A stretch of DNA of 64,000 nt from Acidobacteriota bacterium (lineage in GTDB: Bacteria; Acidobacteriota; Vicinamibacteria; Vicinamibacterales; JAKQTR01), in the NCBI GenBank assembly GCA_026393675.1, contig JAPKZQ010000029.1, positions 6,108 through 70,107 on the forward strand, given 5' to 3'. Below the pieces are notes generated by a model that saw only the letters and a program-made list of their open reading frames with translations, was not told the DNA's origin and made no database searches. Position numbers and translations under genes: made by a program. Below, piece after piece: positions 4,038 through 61,534 of the stretch (position 1 is the stretch's first letter; each line of letters starts with the position of its first letter).

Positions 4038-4065
4038 GCTGTCGTCTCCAATCTCCGCACCACGA

Positions 4066-4095
4066 CTGGACCCCGGCTTCCGCCGGGGTGACGAA
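4066..4095. repeat. 30-bp hairpin-containing repeat CTGGACCCCGGCTTCCGCCGGGGTGACGAA (copy 1 of 2)
   Basis: Identical 30-mer at 34795-34824. Perfect 7-bp stem CCCCGGC/GCCGGGG with a TTCC loop; located in the HK/RR intergenic spacer. Confidence 0.6.
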
Positions 4096-6051: not shown

Positions 6052-6213
6052 CGCGTGGCGTGAAGGCCCTCCGGGGGCTCGCCGGCCTCACGTTGTCATC
6101 GTTCCACGGATTCTATGCGCAATTGTCCGGCCGGCGTCGAGCTTCTGTCAGGGATCGATATGGTGTGCCGGTCGGCGGGGCTGAAGCCCCGCCCTCCATC
6201 GGAGAAACATGCA

Positions 6214-6285
6214 GGCCGGGTCTTCCGCCTTCGCGTGCAGCTTCGGCGGACCGCCGTAACCTCTGTGGAAGCGGTCAGACCCGGC
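6214..6285 (-). repeat. Dispersed MITE/REP-like element, copy A, with terminal inverted repeats CCGGGTCTgACCGCC...GGCGGAAGACCCGG
   Basis: Near-identical (reverse-complemented) to copies at 7589-7669, 29090-29160 and 47917-47986. The core is GGTTACGGCGGTCCGCCGAAGC...GCGAAGGCGGAAGACCCGGCC. It creates the spurious ORF peptides GLPPSRAASADRRNLGG.GQTRR in the track. Confidence 0.8.
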
Positions 6286-6294
6286 GCTCGACGA

Positions 6295-7503
6295 TCACTT
6301 GTTGGCGTTGCGGATGCGCGCCGCGAACTGATCGAGGTACTGCTTCAGCCCTTTGATAACGGCATCGGCGTGCGCGCTCGATGCGCTGCCCGCGACACCA
6401 CCGCTGCGTAGCAGCGACACCTGCACCAGCAGCGGCGAATCCTCGTACGAGAGCTTCGCCGTCGTGTAGGTATAGAGGATGGCGTCGTATCTCGACACGC
6501 AGAAGCCGGTGGCCATGCTGGTCGTCATGATGTTGACGTAGACGTACGTGTCTTCGTCTGCGTTGCGCGCGACCTTCAGCCCCGCGTCGGAGAGGCTCTT
6601 CGAGACAGTCGCTTCAATCGCATCCTGTTTCAGCCCGCAGGTTGTGGCCGACGAGTCCAGGCCCTCAACGACCATGCCGAGTCTGGTGATGCCCTTGAGT
6701 TCTGCATCCGGCTTCTGGGAGCCGATCGGCGCCTGGGCGGCTCCCGTCACGGCAGGCACATCCTGCTTGCCGGGCTCGGCCGCCGCTGGCGGGAGCGCCG
6801 GGCGGTTCGGATCGTAGGCTTTGGTCGCGTCTCTCAGACCGGAGGCGGGCGTCGGCTGCGCACCTGCCTGAGCGGCACCAACGGGCGTTGACGGCTCATC
6901 GGCACGCGTGGGTTCGTACACGCGCGTGATGATGTCGCGGCCGCCGCGCTCGACAAACTGTACCTGCACGATCAACTGTGACGGATCGAGCTTGCGCGAG
7001 TAGGTGTACCGGACCTCACGGCTCTTTTCCACCTTGTATCTCACCACCAGCAGCGCGCCCTCCCACCTCGCGGTCGTGGTCACAGGCGACGCGTCGAGCG
7101 GCTGGAACTCGTCTTTGCCGTCCGGATGGAACCGGCGTGATCGGCCCTGATCATCCGTGATTGAGATCGCGGTCTCCGATTGCACGATGGTCAGGTGCGG
7201 GGAAGGCGTTCGGACTTCGTCCACCAACTGTCTGGCGTTCCGGGCTTCGGCCTCGCTCTCGTTGCGCGGCACGAAGGCGGCTGCCCCGCGGCCTTCCCTC
7301 TCATCCGAACCGGCCCCTGGCGGAATCACGTCCATGCCAAAGCCGACCTCACGCGGAAACTGGCTCAGGGTGCGATTGAGCGTCCATCTGCCGGCGAGGC
7401 TCGGATTGTCGGCCGCCGCGACCGTCTCCCAGCCAGCCACCGCCGCCGCGATGACGGTCGCCCCTATCAAAACCACCATCGAGATCCACCGGCTCATGTG
7501 CAT
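6295..7503 (-). CDS. Hypothetical exported protein with signal/TM anchor, a Pro/Ala-rich linker, and a C-terminal domain of unknown function
   Basis: Start chosen at MHMSRWISMVVLIGATVIAAAVAG (hydrophobic anchor). The upstream part of the ORF-track ORF overlaps repeat copy B. The composition is protein-like (Y/T/V-rich C-terminal domain). Confidence 0.5.
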   Translation of the reverse strand: MHMSRWISMVVLIGATVIAAAVAGWETVAAADNPSLAGRWTLNRTLSQFPREVGFGMDVIPPGAGSDEREGRGAAAFVPRNESEAEARNARQLVDEVRTPSPHLTIVQSETAISITDDQGRSRRFHPDGKDEFQPLDASPVTTTARWEGALLVVRYKVEKSREVRYTYSRKLDPSQLIVQVQFVERGGRDIITRVYEPTRADEPSTPVGAAQAGAQPTPASGLRDATKAYDPNRPALPPAAAEPGKQDVPAVTGAAQAPIGSQKPDAELKGITRLGMVVEGLDSSATTCGLKQDAIEATVSKSLSDAGLKVARNADEDTYVYVNIMTTSMATGFCVSRYDAILYTYTTAKLSYEDSPLLVQVSLLRSGGVAGSASSAHADAVIKGLKQYLDQFAARIRNANK

Positions 7504-7588
7504 GTCCCTTCGAATTCCTGTCCCGACTACCCATCTACTTTCGACGCACGCCGCCAACTTGTGGCCTTGTCGCGCGCCGTGTCGCACG

Positions 7589-7669
7589 CCGGGTCTGACC
7601 GCGTCCACCGAGGTTACGGCGGTCCGCCGGAGCTGCACGCGAAGGCGGAAGACCCGGCCTCCAGCTAGA
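7589..7669 (+). repeat. Dispersed MITE/REP-like element, copy B
   Basis: Same element as 6214-6285 in opposite orientation; intergenic between two minus-strand genes. Confidence 0.8.
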
Positions 7670-7701
7670 ATACCCCCTCCAGCCCGAACAATCCGGCTCC
7701 G

Positions 7702-8799
7702 TCACCGCTTCTCCGTGTACTTCCAGATCACATTTCTGCTGCCCACGAGAAACGACTGACCGCCCCAACCGGTCGGCGTGCCCTGCAGCGCCACCACCGC
7801 CTCGGCATCGTCGTCGGCGCTGTCGGCATAGACCAGGTCCCCGCCGCCGCCGTACACGTATGTGATGTGGTGATGCCGGCTGCCTTTCGACGTGCCCAGA
7901 CAGACGAAGCCCGCGTCACTTCCCGCTACCGGCATCGGCATGCCGCGTGGCCTGGAGAGGCGATTGCCCCAGGGCGCCTTGAGCGAGCGCACCACATTCC
8001 CGTTGATGTCGAGGAACACCAACTCCTCGACACCGTCGCTCAGCACCATGAAGGACGGGCGCGCCCCGCCGGCTGAGCGCGCCACACTGAACCGGTTGAA
8101 CACGTGCGGCGACGTCCAGGTCGCGAGCGGCCGGCCGTCAGCCGAGAAGACCGCCATCTGGTTCTTGCCGTCGGTGTGGTTCTCGGCGACGACGTCGGCG
8201 CGGCCATCGCCATCCATGTCCGCGCAATCAAAATACAACGGGCGCCCGGCAGCGGTGATCGGCCGGAGTGACACGCCAGCCAAGCTCCGTACATCGAGGC
8301 CGGCCCCGCCCGGGCTGACGATTTCCACGCGGCCGTCTCCATCCAGATCGGCCGCGATGGGCTCCTGGAACGAGCCGCCAGGTGAGGTCCAGACAACGCC
8401 GCCGGACTCATCGAACAACACGGTTTGACCGGCCTTCGGGAGGTTGCCCAGGAACCGCAGTTTCCCGTCGGCAGCTCCCGTGACAGCTCTGACCGCCCAC
8501 GGCCCTTCGGGTGAGCGGAACGGCGCGAATCGTTTTTCCTTGCCGTCGGGCCCAAGCAGATGGATCCCATCACTCGCGACCGCGAGAATCTCGTCGGCCC
8601 CGTCCTTATCGAAGTCGCCCTGGCGCAGGTCCGACACGAGGTTCATGTTCGGCCCACGGAAGAGCACGCTCTTCTCGTACTTCACCTTCTCGATGAGGAC
8701 CCCGTCCGGATACGACACCGGCGAGTAGCAGGCGACAACACAGACCGTCGCCGCTGTTGCCAGAACGGCGAACCCGATGACATGCGATTGGCGCATCAC
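7702..8799 (-). CDS. FG-GAP/VCBS-like repeat lipoprotein with calcium-binding-like DxDGDG motifs
   Basis: Lipobox AATVCVVAC after the signal sequence. Repeated DFDKDGADEI, DLDGDGRVEI and DMDGDGRADV motifs typical of FG-GAP beta-propeller blades. Confidence 0.6.
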   Translation of the reverse strand: MMRQSHVIGFAVLATAATVCVVACYSPVSYPDGVLIEKVKYEKSVLFRGPNMNLVSDLRQGDFDKDGADEILAVASDGIHLLGPDGKEKRFAPFRSPEGPWAVRAVTGAADGKLRFLGNLPKAGQTVLFDESGGVVWTSPGGSFQEPIAADLDGDGRVEIVSPGGAGLDVRSLAGVSLRPITAAGRPLYFDCADMDGDGRADVVAENHTDGKNQMAVFSADGRPLATWTSPHVFNRFSVARSAGGARPSFMVLSDGVEELVFLDINGNVVRSLKAPWGNRLSRPRGMPMPVAGSDAGFVCLGTSKGSRHHHITYVYGGGGDLVYADSADDDAEAVVALQGTPTGWGGQSFLVGSRNVIWKYTEKR

Positions 8800-19454: not shown

Positions 19455-19515
19455 GAGATACGGTATTCTTGCTCCTTACCCTTTGCTCCTTGCTTCATCT
19501 GGTTGAGTGCTTACC

Positions 19516-28847: not shown

Positions 28848-29089
28848 GGATCGGGCCCGACGGCGTTGTCGTCATTTCTTGCGCCGTGCTTCTTGCTTCT
28901 GTTCGGGCGCGATGAATCGCGGCTCTACGACGAATGCCTTCTTGGTGTCCCGTAGGGGCGCAATTCTTTGCGCCCGAACGGCGGACTTGTGGTGGTGTCG
29001 GGGCAACCCCCCGTGGTTGCCCCACGTGATTCGGGCGGGCACAGGGGCCCGCCCCTACGGGTTCCTGCCGTCTCCTGACAATTGTGTTG

Positions 29090-29160
29090 CCGGGTCTGAC
29101 CGCCTCCGCCAAGGCTACGGCGGTCCGCCGAAGCTTCTTGCGAAGGCGGAAGACCCGGCC
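29090..29160 (+). repeat. Dispersed MITE/REP-like element, copy C
   Basis: GCCGGGTCTGACCGCC....GGCTACGGCGGTCCGCCGAAGC...GCGAAGGCGGAAGACCCGGCC; same family as 6214-6285, 7589-7669 and 47917-47986. Confidence 0.8.
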
Positions 29161-29233
29161 TACACTTTGTCCTCCGTCTAGCGTCTACCGACTGCTGATT
29201 CAGGAACGTGACCTGCGGGATACTGATAGCCGA

Positions 29234-32993: not shown

Positions 32994-33180
32994 GCGGCCG
33001 AACGCTCGGGTCGCATCCGCGCATGCCACAGCCGTGGCGCGACATTCACGGTGACGCTCGCCGACTCCCTGGGTCGGCGAGCGTCACCTTTTTGCGTATT
33101 GGTGTCTAATCTTTCAGGCGACCACCTCTGGCCAGAGTCGGCTGCCTTGTGGAGTGCATCACACAACACAAGGAGGGCGT

Positions 33181-34751: not shown

Positions 34752-34794
34752 GGACCGGCTGGCGGCGCCGGAAGGGGCGCTTTCCGCCCCAGGG

Positions 34795-34824
34795 CTGGAC
34801 CCCGGCTTCCGCCGGGGTGACGAA
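34795..34824. repeat. 30-bp hairpin-containing repeat (copy 2 of 2), downstream of the PEGA gene and preceded by a second GC hairpin GGGGCGctttcCGCCCC
   Basis: Identical to 4066-4095; lies between the convergent PEGA (+) and XDH (-) genes, consistent with a bidirectional terminator. Confidence 0.6.
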
Positions 34825-35667: not shown

Positions 35668-35700
35668 GATCGCCGGGTCTGAAGACCCGGCCTCCAGTTC
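35668..35700. repeat. Solo terminal-inverted-repeat hairpin of the MITE-like family (CCGGGTCTGAAGACCCGG plus the shared tail CCTCCAGTTC)
   Basis: Ends of the about 75-bp element joined without the internal core; the tail matches copy B (gacccggcctccag). Confidence 0.5.
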
Positions 35701-36215
35701 TAAAGACTCGGCCTACGCTTCGGCTTGGTTCCACCGTCTACTGACGACCGATTACTGGCCACCTTCTTCTTGGTTCTTCCTTCTTGCTCCTTGCTGCTTC
35801 TTGTCGCCGCCTTGATCGCTCTGTAGATCCCCATGTATCCCGTGCACCGGCAGAGATTGCCCGCCAGCCCGGTTCGTACCTCATCGAGCGTCGGGTGGGG
35901 TCCAAGCGCGATCGCCGCCATGACCATCCCGGGCGTGCAGATGCCGCATTGGGCGCCGCCCTGTTCCGCGAAGGCGCGCTGCAGGGGATGGCGACCCTTC
36001 AGCCCTTCGATTGTCGTGACCGTCGCGCCGCGGACCTGCGCGATCGGCACGAGGCACGCGTTGACGGCCCGGCCATCAAGCGCGACCGTGCAGGCCCCGC
36101 ACTCGCCCTCGCCGCATCCTTCCTTGGTGCCTGTCAGGTGGCAGTCCTCGCGCAGGACGTCCAGCAGACGCTTCATCGGATGCGCACGGACCGACGTCCG
36201 TTTGCCATTCAGCAC
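35700..36215 (-). CDS. Xanthine dehydrogenase-family [2Fe-2S] small subunit (CoxS-like)
   Basis: GCGEGECGACTV and CGICTPGMVM ... CRCTGY cysteine motifs. Confidence 0.9.
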   Translation of the reverse strand: MLNGKRTSVRAHPMKRLLDVLREDCHLTGTKEGCGEGECGACTVALDGRAVNACLVPIAQVRGATVTTIEGLKGRHPLQRAFAEQGGAQCGICTPGMVMAAIALGPHPTLDEVRTGLAGNLCRCTGYMGIYRAIKAATRSSKEQEGRTKKKVASNRSSVDGGTKPKRRPSL

Positions 36216-36229
36216 GAACGTGATGGGTT

Positions 36230-38539
36230 TCAGCGCTTCGCTCCATTGCCGGGCTGGAGCCCGGCGATCCCAGGCTCGTCCAGTCCCCGACTTTCGACTC
36301 CCGAATTTCGCTTGCCACGCCGGCGCCCTTCGACAGGCTCAGGGCTTCGCTGTCGGCTTGGTTCGAGGGGCCGCTCCGGAAGCCGTCCTCTTACCTGCAC
36401 GGGCAGCGGCTCCTGCGCGTCCCTCCCTCTTTCGTGACGCTCCATTGCCTCCATCACCCGCTCCGGGGTCGCCGGCACCTGCCGGATGTCGATGCCGAGG
36501 CTACGAATCGCATTGACCACGGCCGGCGCGACTCCGTCAAATGGCATCTCGCCCACGCCTTTGGCTCCGTACGGCCCGTGCGCGTACGGCCGCTCCAGGA
36601 TGATGATATCCATCGGAGGCGTATCGAGCGTCGTCGGAATGATGTAGTTCGTCAACTGCGCATTGGCCATCGCGCCGTCGCGCATCACCACGTCCTCGAG
36701 CAGGGCGTAGCCGAGGCCCTGAGCCGTGCCGCCTTCGATCTGGCCCCGTACGCCCAGGGGGAAGATCGCCTTGCCGATCTCCTGCGCCGTGGTCACACGC
36801 GTCGGCCGCACTTCGAAGGTCACCGGATCGAGTTCGACTTCGACGACCTCGCACCCCCAGCCGAACGAGCCGTACGCGGAGCCGCGATAGTTCTCGTCAT
36901 CCCACACGAGCCCCGGCGGCGGTTCGTATTGTTTCGTGATGACGAGCCGGCCATGCGTGCGCCGGTACTGGCCGGGCGAGCGCGATCCCAGCCGCTCGCG
37001 CATCTCCTCCGCACACCGCTTCAGCAGTCCCCCGACGACCATCGTCGTTCGCGACGCGACCGTTGGTCCGCTATTCGGCACGAACGCCGTATCGGCGGCT
37101 TCGACCTCGACGCGGTCGAGCGGGATGCCCAGCGTGTCGGCCACGATCTGCGCGTGCACGGTGCGCTGCCCCTGGCCGATCTCGGTGCTCGCCACCAGGA
37201 TGCGCACGCCGTCGGTCGTGAGTTCCAGCGACGCCTTCGACGCGAGGTAGACCTCGCCGCTGCCCGTGAAGCCCGCGCCGTGGAAGAACAGCGACAGGCC
37301 GATGCCCCGATTGGTGCCGCGGAAGGCCCGGCGCTTCTTGTGGAAGTCGCTCCGCGCGACCGTCGCGCGCAGCACGTCGAGCGCGGCGGTATCCCGGCCG
37401 AGCCTCTGCCCGGTGGCCGTCACATCACCCGGTCTGAACGCGTTCTTCTCGCGCAGCCGGACCGGGTCCATCCCCAGCGCTTCCGCGATGCGCGCCATGT
37501 GGACCTCAACCGCAAACAGTGTCTGTGGCGCGCCGAATCCGCGGAACGCGCCGTTGGGTGGGGTGTTGGTCATCACCACGCGCCCGTCGACGCGGACGTG
37601 CTCGCATCGGTACGGGCCGGTCGCATGGATGCAGCCGCGCGACAACACGACGGGGCTCAGCGTGCAATAGGCCCCGCCGTCCATCACCACCGAGATGTCC
37701 ATGGCCACAAGCCGTCCATCGCGCATCACGCCGGTCCGGTGCCGCACGATGGACGGGTGGCGCTTGGTGGTGGCGAGCATGTCCTCCACGCGGTCGTAGA
37801 CGATCTTGACCGGCCGCCCCGCCTTGAGCGCGAGCAGGGCGGCATGGCCCGCGATGATCGACGGATAGTCTTCTTTTCCGCCGAAGCCGCCGCCGGTTTC
37901 GGCCTGCACCACGCGCACCTTGTCGGCTGGCAGATCGAGCAGCGTGCAGAGCGCCTTGTGCACGTAGTACGGGCATTGGAGCGATCCGTATAGCGTCACG
38001 CCACCGTCGCCGGGTACGGCGAGCATGCCGTTGGGCTCGATATACAGGTGCTCCTGGTGGCCGGTCCGGTACTCACCCTCGATGATCAGATCGGCGCGCG
38101 CGAACCCGTCGTCGAGCGAGCCCTTTTCGATCCGCACGTGCTTGAAGATGTGCGTGGACCTGTCGGCATCGAAGACCGGTGTCGCGGGGAGGTAGTCGAC
38201 CTCCACGTGTGCGCCATGGAGGCGCTCGGGATCCTCGTGTGCGATGAGCAGAATCGGTTCGGCCGCGTGGCGCACCAGGCGGCTCGCCAGGCACGGTTGA
38301 TCGTCGGTGATGAGCGACACCACATTACGACCCGGGATGTCGCCGGCGTCCACCACCGTGAACCCTGAGCGGTCGAAGCCGAACCTGATGCCGGTGATCT
38401 CGCCGCACGGGATGGAGGATCGAATCGTCCGGCCATAGAGCAGCCCGGGCCACGTGAGGTCGTCAACGTAGCGGGCCGTGCCTGCAGTCTTGCTGGCGGC
38501 GTCCTTTCGCGCCACGTTGCGTCCAACGTACCGGCTCAT
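36230..38539 (-). CDS. Xanthine dehydrogenase/aldehyde oxidoreductase-family molybdopterin-binding large subunit
   Basis: [15 protein letters not shown]-terminus and the Ald_Xan_dh_C / C2 layout. The active-site loop reads GPYRCEHVR, i.e. neither the form I CODH AYxCSFR nor the form II AYRGAGR motif. Confidence 0.9.
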
Positions 38540-47890: not shown

Positions 47891-47916
47891 ATCACCCGGG
47901 GTGCCGGTCCTGAATG

Positions 47917-47986
47917 CCGGGTCTGACCGTCCTCACCAAGGTTACGGCGGTCCGCCGAAGCGGCACGCGAAGGCGGAAGACCCGGC
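47917..47986 (+). repeat. Dispersed MITE/REP-like element, copy D
   Basis: GCCGGGTCTGACCGTCC...GGTTACGGCGGTCCGCCGAAGCGGCACGCGAAGGCGGAAGACCCGGC; sits between the convergent motB and FAD-oxidoreductase genes. Confidence 0.8.
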
Positions 47987-59664: not shown

Positions 59665-60258
59665 ATGACGGGACTGCTGATTGTCTTCGAAGGGCTCGAC
59701 CAGAGCGGCAAGGAAACGCAGGCGCGGTTGTTGCGACAGTGGTTCGAAACGTCCGGACGACGGGTCGAGTCGATCGCGTTCCCCGACTACACCTCGCCGA
59801 TTGGCCAGGAGATCCGCACGGCGCTGCACGGCGGACGCGACTACGCCGCCGATACGATCCAGTTGCTGCAGATCGCCAATCGCCATCAGTGGAAGCCGCA
59901 GATCGAGCGCTGGATGGCCGATGGGCGCGTGGTCATCAGCGATCGGTATGCCGCCTCGAGTGTCGCGTACGGTGAGGCGCAGGGGCTCGACCCGGCGTGG
60001 CTGACATCGACGCAGGTGTACCTGCCGCAGCCGTCGACAACCGTGCTGCTCGACATCGCTCCCGACGTGGCTGCCGCGCGCAAAGCCCAGAATCGCGACA
60101 ACTACGAGCGGGATCTCGCCATGCTCTCGCGCGTGCGCGTCAGCTATCTGCGCCAGGCCGCGCAACCAGGCTGGGTCGTGATCGACGCCGCCCGGCCGGT
60201 CGACGTGGTCGCCGCCGATGTCACTAGCGCCGTCTGGTCGCGACTCGCGCCGCGGTAA
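59665..60258 (+). CDS. tmk: Thymidylate kinase-like (dTMP kinase family)
   Basis: P-loop LIVFEGLDQSGKETQ and DRY motif (ISDRYAAS); AGAGGA RBS before the ATG at 59665. Confidence 0.8.
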   Translation: MTGLLIVFEGLDQSGKETQARLLRQWFETSGRRVESIAFPDYTSPIGQEIRTALHGGRDYAADTIQLLQIANRHQWKPQIERWMADGRVVISDRYAASSVAYGEAQGLDPAWLTSTQVYLPQPSTTVLLDIAPDVAAARKAQNRDNYERDLAMLSRVRVSYLRQAAQPGWVVIDAARPVDVVAADVTSAVWSRLAPR

Positions 60259-61093
60259 TCACCCGCACCTCTTTCGCGCCGGCACGCTTCACCACGCTGG
60301 CACATGCCTCGAGCGTGGCACCTGTGGTGCGCACGTCATCCACGAGGACAACCGTCAGGCCCTCGAGCGTCGTGGCCACACGACGCCGCAGCCAGGCGGG
60401 CCAGTGGCACTGGTCCCGCCGCCGGAGCGCGAACGCGCCGTCCACGTTGGCATGCCGCTCCCGGGCTGGAAGATCGACCTGTGGAAGGGTACGGCGCACC
60501 CGCCGGAGCAGGTGGCGGACGGGAAGGCCCAGGTGAGCCGCCAGCAACTCGGCTTGATTGAAGCCCCGCCAGTGGCGCCTCGACCAGTGCAGCGGCACTG
60601 GAACAGCGATGTCCGCACCGGCGAGTACCTCGGCGCCATGATGACGCATCAGACGGCCAAGCCGAGGGGCGACCGATTGACGCTTGCCGTACTTGAGCAC
60701 ATGGATGATGTCGCGCAACGCGCCGTCGTAACTGCCGATGGCGCGGGCGCGATCGACGGCGCCTCGACCAGGCGCGCAGCCCGCGCACACCCGCCGGTGA
60801 AAAGGGTTCGGGACACTCATCTCGATGTTGGACCGAAGAAAATGTTCCGAGCCCGTTTCATCCGCCGAAGCAGAAGCGGAGGCGGACGCATCGGTGGTTG
60901 CGTCACCCTCGAATACGGTAGCGCATCGGAGCCTTTCGAGACGCTGGCGGAGGGAGGGCAGGGGGTCACCGCACCGATCGCAGACGGGCGGTGTGGACGG
61001 CCGGATCGCCGACCAGCAGCCCTCGCAGATGGAGCCGTGCCGGAGGTGCTGAAGAACCGCGCCGCACGTGGCGCACGATGGGGCGAGCAGCAC
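60224..61093 (-). CDS. comF: ComF-family phosphoribosyltransferase (competence protein F / GntX-like)
   Basis: N-terminal double zinc-finger (CATCG...CEGCW...CDRCG) and C-terminal PRT motif VVLVDDVRTTGATL. The long ORF-track start overlaps rsfS, so I used the in-frame GTG at 61093 (VLLAPSCATCG). Confidence 0.65.
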   Translation of the reverse strand: MLLAPSCATCGAVLQHLRHGSICEGCWSAIRPSTPPVCDRCGDPLPSLRQRLERLRCATVFEGDATTDASASASASADETGSEHFLRSNIEMSVPNPFHRRVCAGCAPGRGAVDRARAIGSYDGALRDIIHVLKYGKRQSVAPRLGRLMRHHGAEVLAGADIAVPVPLHWSRRHWRGFNQAELLAAHLGLPVRHLLRRVRRTLPQVDLPARERHANVDGAFALRRRDQCHWPAWLRRRVATTLEGLTVVLVDDVRTTGATLEACASVVKRAGAKEVRVITAARVATRRR

Positions 61094-61148
61094 CAGCGCA
61101 GTGGCTTCGGCGGTTTGCGCGATGCGGTGCGCAAGGCTCCGCCACCTG

Positions 61149-61534
61149 TCAGGCGGGTGTCTCGGGCACGGTAGTGCGCTCGGCGCTGCCCCAGAGCCGC
61201 TCCAGGCTGTAGAAGCGGCGCTGATCAGCCGTAAAGACGTGCACGACGAAATCGAAGTAGTCGAGCAGGATCCAGTTCGATCGGTCATAACCCTCGACGT
61301 GCGCGGGTCGGGTGCCGGACGTGCCGAGCGTCATCTCGATCGCCTCGGCGATGGCCTTCACCTGCCGGGAATTCTGACCCGTGCAGATCAGGAAGTAGTC
61401 CGTGAATGACGACACCTCCCTGAGGTTCAGCGCCACCACGTCGGTGGCCTTCTTCCCGTAGGCGGCCCTGGCCGCCTGGAGGATGTCGTCGGGCAGCACG
61501 TGATCGGTCGACTCGCGTCGCGTCTGGGTTGTAG

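What the first reader, a model, noticed from the sequence alone, without database searches (positions are those of the whole stretch)
6175..7675. Dispersed MITE/REP-like intergenic element of about 75 bp with 14-bp terminal inverted repeats: four full copies and one solo-TIR copy in 64 kb
Full copies lie at 6214-6285 (-), 7589-7669 (+), 29090-29160 (+) and 47917-47986 (+). They share GCCGGGTCTGACCGC..GG(T/C)TACGGCGGTCCGCCG(A/G)AGC..GCGAAGGCGGAAGACCCGGC, and the ends are imperfect reverse complements (CCGGGTCTgACCGCC / GGCGGAAGACCCGG). A fifth locus (35668-35700) carries only the fused termini (CCGGGTCTGAAGACCCGG) plus the tail shared with copy B. This looks like an excision footprint or minimal hairpin form. 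All copies are strictly intergenic, and two flank a single gene (6295-7503) in inverted orientation. The elements generate recurring spurious ORF peptides (GLPPSRAASADRRNLGG.GQTRR) in the ORF track. The family could be a non-autonomous transposable element, a REP substrate for a RAYT/TnpA transposase encoded elsewhere, or a structured regulatory RNA.
Basis: seen in the sequence. Interest (0 to 1): 0.6.

Follow-up and report, generated by a model that had tools for sequence, protein, structure and literature searches.

The report
Nested REP-like palindromic repeat family in Acidobacteriota
The 71-base repeats are real copies of a previously undescribed repetitive palindromic (REP-like) DNA family found across soil Acidobacteriota, built as a small hairpin carrying a second double hairpin in its loop; this is a new example of a familiar kind of bacterial repeat, not a new kind of system.

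Summary

The element is a nested palindrome. A 9-bp outer stem (GCCGGGTCT/AGACCCGGC) encloses a 51-nt inverted doublet of a ~25-nt hairpin unit (CCGCC-GWA-GC..GC-GRA-GGCGG). A CTNC tail usually follows, which reads GNAG, often GTAG, on the other strand.

The family occurs in about 18 Acidobacteriota genomes, mostly Vicinamibacterales. It has mini, short (one unit) and full forms. It lies almost always downstream of at least one gene, in either orientation, and has no target-site duplication.

Two comparisons show the 51-nt inner module present or absent inside an otherwise conserved outer hairpin. One is between paralogous kinase genes, where it is in frame. The other is the orthologous site of copy D. 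Other orthologous intergenic sites are empty or hold different forms, so the repeats turn over.

There is no Rfam match, no strand-specific wobble signal and no U-tract.

Best reading: a GTAG-footed REP/REPIN-type non-autonomous DNA element, probably moved in trans by a Y1 (RAYT-like) transposase that I could not find. I rate it a new member of a known kind, of moderate interest.

The parts
6210..6285 (-). Full copy A: 71-nt nested palindrome 6215-6285 plus CTGCA tail 6210-6214. It starts 9 nt after the stop of gene 6295-7503 (-).
7588..7663 (+). Full copy B: core 7588-7658 plus CTCCA tail. It lies between the start of gene 6295-7503 (-) and the stop of gene 7702-8799 (-). Read on the minus strand it is GGAG + hairpin, 39 nt after that stop.
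29089..29164 (+). Full copy C, the best-preserved copy: core 29089-29159 plus CTACA tail. Both inner units match the same unit pattern on opposite strands (29100-29123 minus, 29125-29149 plus). It is the last of a cluster of four palindromes at 28956-29164, upstream of an amino-acid permease gene.
47916..47986 (+). Full copy D, without the CTNC tail, between the convergent stops of MotB (47890) and an FAD oxidoreductase (47996). Orthologous sites in relatives carry only the mini hairpin, a solo unit, or nothing.
35668..35697 (+). Mini form: GATC + GCCGGGTCT-GA-AGACCCGGC (35672-35691) + CTCCAG. This is the outer stem alone, between coxS-like and coxM-like genes of one operon. In relative L102 these two genes overlap and the insert is absent.
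35694..35716 (+). Decayed second mini hairpin (CCAGTTCTAAAGACTCGG) with a CTAC tail, adjacent to the mini copy.
   Evidence: read directly from the sequence
6174..6198 (+). Variant mini hairpin GGCGGGGCT-GA-AGCCCCGCC + CTCCA, 16 nt from copy A. The arms differ from the main type by compensated changes.
36248..36274 (+). Second outer-stem type: GCCGGGCT-GG-AGCCCGGC + GATCCCAGG, at the 3' end of the coxL-like ORF. The same hairpin occurs in relatives both empty (18 nt) and filled with other inner modules (42 and 78 nt).
28952..29058 (.). Other GTAG/CTAC-footed GC-rich hairpins clustered with copy C: GTAG + GGGCGCAATTCTTTGCGCCC (28956-28975), 29000-29023, and GGGCGGGC..GCCCGCCC + CTAC (29033-29054).

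Best explanation
The repeats are a REP-type (repetitive extragenic palindrome) family of Vicinamibacterales and other Acidobacteriota. They are non-coding, non-autonomous elements that act at the DNA level.

Anatomy (shown). A 9-bp GC-rich outer hairpin (GCCGGGTCT/AGACCCGGC) is usually followed by CT(A/C/G)C, which reads as a G-N-A-G foot on the other strand. This hairpin exists alone as a 20-nt 'mini' repeat. In the full form its loop carries a 51-nt inverted doublet of a ~25-nt hairpin unit (CCGCC-GWA-GC..GC-GRA-GGCGG). Short forms carry one unit.

Dynamics (shown). Copies are gained and lost at orthologous intergenic sites. The 51-nt module appears or disappears precisely inside the outer loop at TCTGA|AGACC, leaving only a 2-nt ambiguity. 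No target-site duplication flanks the whole element. Copies accumulate downstream of genes, in either orientation.

Mechanism (inferred). By analogy with REP/RAYT and IS200/IS605 systems, the hairpins fold in single-stranded DNA during replication. A HUH Y1 tyrosine transposase encoded elsewhere in the genome recognises them together with the foot tetranucleotide, then cuts and rejoins them in trans. When transcribed at the 3' ends of mRNAs or inside operons they would form very stable stem-loops. These could secondarily affect mRNA decay or termination, as E. coli REPs do.
For: Repeat reality and statistics.

Nested palindrome. The RNA and DNA folds of copy C give z = -6.5 to -8.1 on both strands. 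About 95% of cells are paired in 25 copies. Compensatory changes occur in the outer stem (GC->CG in 4 copies) and in the apical helix of the first unit (GC->AU in 3, CG->UA in 2). The two inner units match one pattern on opposite strands.

Distribution. A 19-mer scan of one genome per species returned 60 loci. About 36 true copies come from the window plus about 18 Acidobacteriota MAGs, named Vicinamibacterales, Solibacteraceae and gp6. MotB homologues of the window are named Vicinamibacterales.

Forms and foot. Mini, short and full forms and the CTNC/GNAG foot are listed.

Genomic context. Of 30 copies with a called gene on both sides, 17 lie between co-directional genes, 11 between convergent genes and 2 between divergent genes. 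Published REP families show the same pattern (PMC3733652).

No target-site duplication.

Empty versus filled sites. In MAG Ww335 one kinase paralogue has CCCCGGGTCT-TC-AGACCCGGGG and another has the same sequence plus 51 nt. At the copy D site, L102 (84% MotB identity) and L104 (80%) have the mini form. L102 and L104 are only 76% identical to each other, so one insertion in the window lineage is the most parsimonious history.

Turnover at other sites. At the coxS/coxM junction the genes overlap in L102, while the window has a ~140-nt insert with two minis. The copy A site is empty in L065 and holds another hairpin type in L064. The MotB 3' site is empty in L106 and L107 and holds a solo unit in L108.

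Literature. REPs are defined by a 5' GT[AG]G foot plus a hairpin of 21-65 nt, often with a bulge, next to a tnpA-REP gene. In-gene REP insertions are known. Acidobacteria carry Y1 transposases with associated high-copy hairpins (PMC6006769; PMC3733652).
Against: No Y1/RAYT gene was found. phmmer with E. coli RayT and a HUH...Y motif regex found nothing in the window or in the roughly 0.7 Mb of related loci scanned. Pfam on 27 window proteins shows no transposase. The rest of the source genome could not be read.

The foot is G-N-A-G with a variable second base (GTAG, GGAG, GCAG), not the strict GT[AG]G. Copy D lacks it.

The full element (71 nt) is longer than canonical REPs, and its nested build is not the usual REPIN layout of two REPs separated by a spacer.

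The only Acidobacterial hairpin listed for class 3 Y1 enzymes (Solibacter, CCGA + GCCGCGAC..) has a different sequence.

The genome-wide copy number is extrapolated from 64 kb.
Confidence: 0.6

Rival explanations
1. Classical MITE. This would be a deletion derivative of a DDE-transposase insertion sequence, moved by cut-and-paste through its terminal inverted repeats. The repeats could be the outer arms, or the CCGCC/GGCGG ends of the 51-nt inner module, which would then target hairpin loops.
For: The 9-14-nt arms are inverted repeats. The inner module is a discrete 51-nt indel with its own inverted ends, and a 2-nt GA/TC is repeated at its junctions. From my own knowledge, IS1397 and ISKpn1 insert specifically into REP loops. 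An IS630-like HTH fragment lies next to one orthologous site (L102).
Against: No duplication of 2-10 nt flanks the outer arms in about 40 copies. The 2-nt repeat is within what chance gives. No autonomous element with these ends, and no transposase, is present in the held sequence. The whole element is palindromic throughout, unlike most MITEs.
Confidence: 0.12
2. Structured RNA element. This would be a 3'-UTR stabiliser, a U-tract-less terminator, or a small RNA, with the fold selected at the RNA level and the copies spread or maintained for that function.
For: 28 of 30 copies lie downstream of at least one gene, often 2-40 nt after the stop. The folds are very stable. There are compensatory substitutions. 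The unit has a symmetric GAA/GAA or GUA/GAA internal loop that resembles tandem sheared G-A motifs (inference). One short copy (L054) is followed by T9. There is a modest excess of the GTAG-first strand in the sense orientation: 13 vs 4 by inner orientation, 11 vs 6 by foot.
Against: No Rfam family matches at gathering score or at permissive thresholds; only generic hairpin (miRNA-like) noise appears. Both orientations occur. Wobble is symmetric, G-T 15 vs A-C 15, so neither strand is protected. Copies sit between co-transcribed coxS and coxM, and in frame inside kinase genes, which does not fit an obligatory terminator. No U-tract follows the window copies, although the genome does have a canonical terminator at 33050-33088 followed by a T run. 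Every part of the sequence is conserved, not only the paired positions.
Confidence: 0.12
3. Double-stranded DNA binding or recombination sites for a host protein (nucleoid protein, gyrase, or a Xer/integron-like recombinase), repeated because the protein needs many sites.
For: The sites are perfectly symmetric, as dimeric binders require. E. coli REPs bind IHF, gyrase and Pol I (PMC6006769 background).
Against: There is no nearby recombinase or cassette structure. Modular mini, short and full forms, and turnover between close relatives, are not expected for essential binding sites. No test was possible.
Confidence: 0.04

Closest known systems
REP/BIME elements and their RAYT (TnpA-REP) in E. 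coli; REPINs of Pseudomonas
   Same: GC-rich imperfect palindrome with a tetranucleotide foot. The E. coli REP ends in ..GGCCTAC, and here the element ends in ..CCCGGCCTAC. Both are dispersed, mostly downstream of genes between convergent or co-directional ORFs, lack target-site duplications, occur in clusters of several palindromes, and form inverted doublets that fold into long hairpins.
   Different: The foot is G-N-A-G, not the strict GT[AG]G. The doublet is nested inside the loop of another hairpin instead of being two REPs separated by a spacer. The full form is 71 nt. The host phylum is Acidobacteriota. No RAYT has been identified.
GTAG-tagged REP super-family (Di Nocera et al. 2013, PMC3733652)
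   Same: Defined by a palindrome with a terminal GTAG. Members occur as singletons, dimers and groups, are enriched downstream of ORFs, and are sometimes found inside genes. The paper also reports Acidobacterial tyrosine transposases flanked by inverted repeats.
   Different: This sequence is not in that paper's text. The families listed there are 20-40 bp single hairpins.
Class 3 TnpA-Y1-associated hairpins with a CnGA foot (Quentin et al. 2018, PMC6006769), about 600 copies in Solibacter usitatus
   Same: They occur in Acidobacteria, at high copy number, as atypical hairpins with a tetranucleotide foot. Here the first inner unit is preceded by CTGA and the inner module ends in CGGA, and both fit CnGA.
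   Different: The Solibacter hairpin sequence (CCGA GCCGCGACTGTCAAGGAGCGGTTG) is unrelated. The CnGA match rests on four bases only. No class 3 gene was found.
Rickettsia palindromic elements (RPE) and intragenic REPs (own knowledge; intragenic REPs also in PMC3733652 and PMC6006769)
   Same: Palindromic repeats inserted in frame in protein-coding genes and translated. Here 51 nt (17 codons), plus the mini hairpins, lie inside the Pkinase domains of MAG Ww335.
   Different: Seen only in relatives, not in this window. The RPE sequence and its hosts are unrelated.
IS1397/ISKpn1, insertion sequences that target REP hairpin loops (own knowledge, not checked here)
   Same: A mobile sequence that lands specifically in the loop of a REP hairpin.
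   Different: Those are 1.4-kb autonomous IS3-family elements with 3-4-bp duplications. Here the insert is a 51-nt non-coding double hairpin.

Membership tests
REP / REPIN (RAYT-associated) | Imperfect palindrome that folds into a stable hairpin | tested here: met
   Folds on both strands, z down to -8.1. 95% of cells are paired in 25 copies, with compensatory changes.
REP / REPIN (RAYT-associated) | Conserved 5' GT[AG]G tetranucleotide at the foot of the hairpin | tested here: inconclusive
   A CTNC tail (= GNAG) follows most copies. It is CTAC in about 9 of 25 full copies and in most minis, and CTCC or CTGC in others. Copy D has none.
REP / REPIN (RAYT-associated) | Size of 21-65 nt per REP; a REPIN is two inverted REPs | tested here: inconclusive
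   The mini form (20 nt plus foot) and the ~25-nt inner units fit. The full 71-nt form is a nested composite, not the canonical spaced doublet.
REP / REPIN (RAYT-associated) | Many dispersed, mainly extragenic copies, enriched between convergent or co-directional genes | tested here: met
   The window has 4 full copies and at least 3 mini forms in 64 kb. Context counts are 17 co-directional, 11 convergent and 2 divergent. The genome-wide number was not measured.
REP / REPIN (RAYT-associated) | A cognate Y1 (PF01797-type) transposase gene in the same genome, typically flanked by the REPs | not testable with these tools
   None was found in the window or in the roughly 0.7 Mb of related loci scanned.
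MITE | Terminal inverted repeats | tested here: met
   The 9-bp perfect outer arms extend to about 14 nt when imperfect pairing is allowed.
MITE | Target-site duplication flanking the element | tested here: not met
   The flanks of about 40 copies show no direct repeat. Only a 2-nt GA ambiguity occurs at the inner-module junction.
MITE | A related autonomous IS with the same ends | not tested
   None is present in the held sequence. No way was left to scan genomes for one.
Curated structured RNA family (Rfam) | Match to a covariance model | tested here: not met
   There were 0 hits at gathering thresholds in 64 kb. Permissive mode gave only sub-threshold miRNA-like hairpin noise.
Cis-acting RNA element in general | One functional strand: fixed orientation to the gene, with G-U tolerated on that strand only | tested here: not met
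   Both orientations occur (13:4 and 11:6). G-T and A-C mismatches are 15 each.
Intrinsic terminator | GC-rich hairpin immediately followed by a U-tract | tested here: not met
   No T run follows any window copy. One relative (L054) has T9. A canonical terminator exists elsewhere in the window at 33050-33088.
IS200/IS605-derived miniature element (PATE-like), for the 51-nt inner module | Hairpins at both ends; insertion 3' of a fixed tetranucleotide without duplication; Y1 TnpA | tested here: inconclusive
   The two terminal hairpins are present. Both empty/filled pairs place the module after TCTGA. That is only two events, with a 2-nt ambiguity and no TnpA found.

The most novel reading that the evidence does not exclude
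The full element is not one unit but a nested pair of mobile palindromes. In this reading a 51-nt double hairpin is itself a minimal non-coding transposable module, with its left and right end hairpins directly abutting. It inserts specifically into the loop of a GTAG-footed mini REP at CTGA|A. It may use CnGA-type cleavage sites, like those reported for the poorly understood class 3 Y1 enzymes of Acidobacteria. REP hairpin loops would then be dedicated landing pads, and different outer-stem types would carry different inner modules (18-, 42- and 78-nt forms of the GCCGGGCT type).
Probability: 0.3. Interest if true: 0.55.

Novelty: new member of a known kind. Interest (0 to 1): 0.35.

Why it matters
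REP/RAYT biology has been worked out almost entirely in Proteobacteria. This family gives a well-defined, phylum-wide REP-like system in Acidobacteriota, which are abundant soil bacteria that are hard to culture.

It offers natural empty and filled sites that mark the exact junction of a 51-nt module. That makes the cleavage specificity of the unknown enzyme directly testable with oligonucleotides.

There are also practical uses. The repeats create spurious ORFs and in-frame protein insertions that annotation pipelines should mask. Their turnover can serve as a strain marker in metagenomes.

Tried and rejected
1. Rfam at gathering and at permissive thresholds gave nothing meaningful.

2. tRNA or tmRNA association: there are none in the window.

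3. I looked for a RAYT in four ways. phmmer with E. coli RayT (fetched) against all six-frame ORFs of the window and loci found nothing. A HUH...Y motif regex found nothing. Pfam on the small window ORFs found no transposase. A homologue search with RayT listed only Enterobacteria, so that search was wasted.

4. A search of the protein database with the four element-encoded peptides joined together scored nothing at E <= 0.001.

5. The viral contig scan gave five hits, all chance matches inside coding sequence. The plasmid collection gave no match.

6. I asked whether gene 6295-7503, which is flanked by copies A and B, could be the mobilising protein. It has no Pfam domain and has a hydrophobic, probably membrane-spanning or signal-like, N-terminus (read from the translation, not tested). 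Its orthologues lack the flanking copies. Rejected.

7. A 'solo unit' at 60862-60885 looked like independent evidence for the inner unit. It lies inside a ComF-like ORF and reads as Ser-Ala codons, so it is probably low-complexity coincidence. A better solo unit exists in L108.

8. A strong orientation bias first seemed to favour an RNA role (27 of 33). It shrank to 13:4 and 11:6 once convergent pairs were set aside and orientation was defined by the foot.

9. I compared a single long hairpin with a three-way junction. Both are about 95% paired, and only the apical helix of the first unit discriminates, weakly, in favour of separate unit hairpins.

10. A full-text search for the sequences found no prior description.
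Full report
OBSERVATION

The palindromic cores are 6215-6285 (-), 7588-7658 (+), 29089-29159 (+) and 47916-47986 (+). Each is 71 nt, and they are 84-93% identical. Chance does not explain them. The 14-mer GGCGGAAGACCCGG gives 9 hits at up to 2 mismatches against 1.55 expected, and 0 of 100 shuffles reach that number. The paired arms at 31-61 nt spacing occur 4 times against 0.05 expected.

The fifth locus is GCCGGGTCTGAAGACCCGGC at 35672-35691, followed by CTCCAG, the same tail as copy B. The window is 66% G+C. It contains no tRNA gene and no Rfam family.

By a crude GC3 gene call plus Pfam, all five loci are intergenic:
- Copy A lies 9 nt after the stop of 6295-7503 (-).
- Copy B lies 39 nt after the stop of 7702-8799 (-).
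- Copy C lies between an NHL-repeat gene and an amino-acid permease.
- Copy D lies between the convergent stops of MotB and an FAD oxidoreductase.
- The mini copy lies between coxS-like and coxM-like genes of one operon.

ANATOMY

The element is a nested palindrome. A 9-bp outer stem (P1, GCCGGGTCT/AGACCCGGC) encloses two hairpins. These are P2 (GACCGCC..GGCGGTC) and P3 (CCGCC-G[A/T]A-GC-loop-GC-GAA-GGCGG).

In copy C both inner hairpins match one pattern, CCGCCGWAGC-N-GCGRAGGCGG, on opposite strands. The inner 51 nt is therefore an inverted doublet of a single ~25-nt unit. Copy C folds with z = -6.5 to -8.1 as RNA or DNA on either strand.

In an alignment of 25 copies (A2), both a three-way junction and a single long hairpin are about 95% paired. 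Compensatory changes occur in the first P1 pair (GC->CG in 4 copies). They also occur in the apical helix of P2 (GC->AU in 3, CG->UA in 2), which mildly favours separate unit hairpins. One MAG has a symmetric insertion at the dyad centre: CGGCGAGTCTCGCCG in place of CGGCGGTCCGCCG.

Most copies are followed by C-CT(A/C/G)C-R. Read on the other strand this is a G-N-A-G foot, often GTAG, directly 5' of the hairpin. The E. coli REP has the same layout (..GGCCTAC).

FAMILY AND DISTRIBUTION

A scan of one genome per prokaryotic species with the 19-mer GCGAAGGCGGAAGACCCGG returned 60 loci. About 24 are chance matches inside coding sequence of unrelated taxa. The rest are true family members from about 18 Acidobacteriota MAGs, named Vicinamibacterales, Solibacteraceae and gp6. 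MotB homologues of the window are named Vicinamibacterales. Five metagenome runs contain contigs 100% identical to the window.

The family is modular:
- Mini form: P1 only, 20 nt, abundant.
- Short form: P1 plus one unit, 50-53 nt.
- Full form: 70-77 nt.
- A second outer-stem type (GCCGGGCT/AGCCCGGC + GATCCCAGG). It occurs empty (18 nt; window 36248-36265) and filled with other inner modules (42 nt in L064, 78 nt in L102).

The window also has a variant mini next to copy A (6174-6193). Two other GTAG/CTAC-footed hairpins are clustered with copy C. The element was absent from viral contigs except for chance coding hits, and from plasmids. I found no paper containing the sequences.

LOCATION, ORIENTATION AND FLANKS

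Of 30 copies with a called gene on both sides, 17 lie between co-directional genes, 11 between convergent genes and only 2 between divergent genes. This is the distribution published for REP families (PMC3733652).

Orientation is only mildly biased toward having the GNAG foot first on the sense strand of the upstream gene. The ratio is 13:4 when orientation is defined by the inner units and 11:6 when defined by the foot. Mismatches that would be G-U on the plus strand equal those that would be G-U on the minus strand, 15 each. Neither strand is therefore preferentially protected.

No direct repeat flanks the outer arms in about 40 copies. No T run follows the window copies, although the window has a canonical terminator at 33050-33088.

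EVIDENCE OF MOBILITY AND TURNOVER

(a) In MAG Ww335, paralogous Ser/Thr kinase genes carry the repeats in frame inside the Pkinase domain. One paralogue has ..CCCCGGGTCT-TC-AGACCCGGGG... Two others have the same sequence with 51 nt (17 codons) inserted in the loop.

(b) At the orthologous site of copy D, just after the MotB stop, two relatives carry only the mini hairpin with a CTCCA tail. These are L102 (84% MotB identity to the window) and L104 (80%). The window has the full form after the same ..GAAT left flank. L102 and L104 are 76% identical to each other. One insertion in the window lineage is therefore more parsimonious than two precise deletions. More distant relatives have nothing there (L106, L107) or a solo unit without P1 (L108).

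(c) The coxS and coxM genes overlap in L102. In the window they are separated by a ~140-nt insert holding a decayed mini and the mini copy.

(d) The copy A site is empty in L065 and holds the second hairpin type in L064. The copy B region holds different forms in L063 and L064.

Both empty/filled pairs place the inner module at TCTGA|AGACC. A 2-nt GA ambiguity remains at the junction.

WHAT IT IS

These features match the REP / GTAG-tagged palindrome class: a GC-rich imperfect palindrome plus foot, dispersed and clustered, downstream of genes, with no duplication and rapid turnover, occasionally in frame inside genes. The literature defines REPs by a 5' GT[AG]G foot and a hairpin of 21-65 nt beside a Y1 transposase gene. 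It also reports Y1 transposases with associated high-copy hairpins in Acidobacteria (PMC6006769; PMC3733652).

The one Acidobacterial hairpin listed there (Solibacter, class 3) has an unrelated sequence. Its 'CnGA foot' is nevertheless echoed here: CTGA precedes the first unit, and CGGA ends the module. This is a lead, not a test.

WHAT WAS NOT SHOWN

I could not find the transposase. No RayT-like ORF or HUH...Y motif is present in the window or in the roughly 0.7 Mb of related loci scanned. No transposase domain appears in the 27 window proteins scanned. Further genome scanning was capped, and the homologue search returned only Enterobacteria. The trans-acting Y1 mechanism is therefore inferred by analogy.

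The gene flanked by copies A and B is not a candidate. It has no Pfam domain, and its orthologues are not flanked in this way.

RIVALS

A DDE-type MITE is disfavoured by the absence of duplications and of any autonomous relative. A strand-specific RNA element is disfavoured for four reasons: there is no Rfam match, both orientations occur, wobble is symmetric, and copies sit inside an operon and inside coding sequence. A generic secondary effect of such stable 3' hairpins on mRNA decay or termination remains likely, as it is for E. coli REPs.

VERDICT

The repeat family is real and apparently undescribed. It is best filed as a new REP-like family, a new member of a known kind, with an unusual nested build. 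The most novel reading still open is that the 51-nt double hairpin is an independent minimal mobile module that targets REP loops. I give that reading about 0.3.

Noticed in passing
window 4054-4095 and 34783-34824: A separate 42-nt repeat, 93% identical, centred on the hairpin ACCCCGG-CTTCCG-CCGGGGT + GACGAA. Five independent short-read assemblies identical to the window all end at window position 4066, inside this repeat. This suggests it is a high-copy repeat in this genome.
   Followed up: partly
L028 2950-3110 and 5936-6135; L048 2100-2270 (MAG 'Acidobacteria bacterium Ww335'): Ser/Thr kinase paralogues carry mini and full repeats in frame inside the Pkinase domain, for example ..AAGSEDPALRRSNGAPGLPPSQTLRRTAVASAEAGQTRG... 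One paralogue also has a second mini pair in the activation-loop region and an unrelated palindromic insert (GAAAAGACGTCGGGAGTCTTTTC..). This resembles Rickettsia RPEs.
   Followed up: partly
window 19466-19503 and 35767-35804: Pyrimidine-rich CTTGCTCCTT-type repeats, which read AAGGAGCAAG on the other strand, lie at gene ends or junctions. A similar purine-rich tract sits between coxL and coxS in L102. Their meaning is unknown; they could be Lys/Glu-rich tails or Shine-Dalgarno-like spacers.
   Followed up: no
window 60862-60885: A sequence matching the inner unit pattern (CCGCCGAAGCAGAAGCGGAGGCGG) lies inside a ComF-like ORF (60224-61288, minus strand; double zinc ribbon plus phosphoribosyltransferase). 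On the coding strand it reads as Ser-Ala codons. It is probably low-complexity coincidence, not a family member.
   Followed up: partly
L108 about 2905-2940: A solo inner-type unit without the outer stem (CCCGCC-GAA-GC-TCAGAGA-GC-GAA-GGCGGG) lies downstream of the MotB orthologue. The unit can therefore exist on its own.
   Followed up: no
L104 10870-10965: Four to five tandem copies of a ~24-nt unit (GCGATGCCGGTCGGTCGCGTGGGC) fill the MotB / FAD-oxidoreductase spacer in a relative, next to a decayed mini hairpin.
   Followed up: no
window 33050-33088: A 16-bp perfect stem followed by TTTTT is a canonical intrinsic terminator. This shows the organism uses U-tract terminators, in contrast with the repeat family.
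   Followed up: no
L102 11202-11648: A 148-aa ORF with only helix-turn-helix transposase-type domains (HTH_28/29/23/32, weak) replaces the FAD oxidoreductase next to the MotB 3' hairpins in one relative. It is possibly an IS fragment at this variable spot.
   Followed up: no
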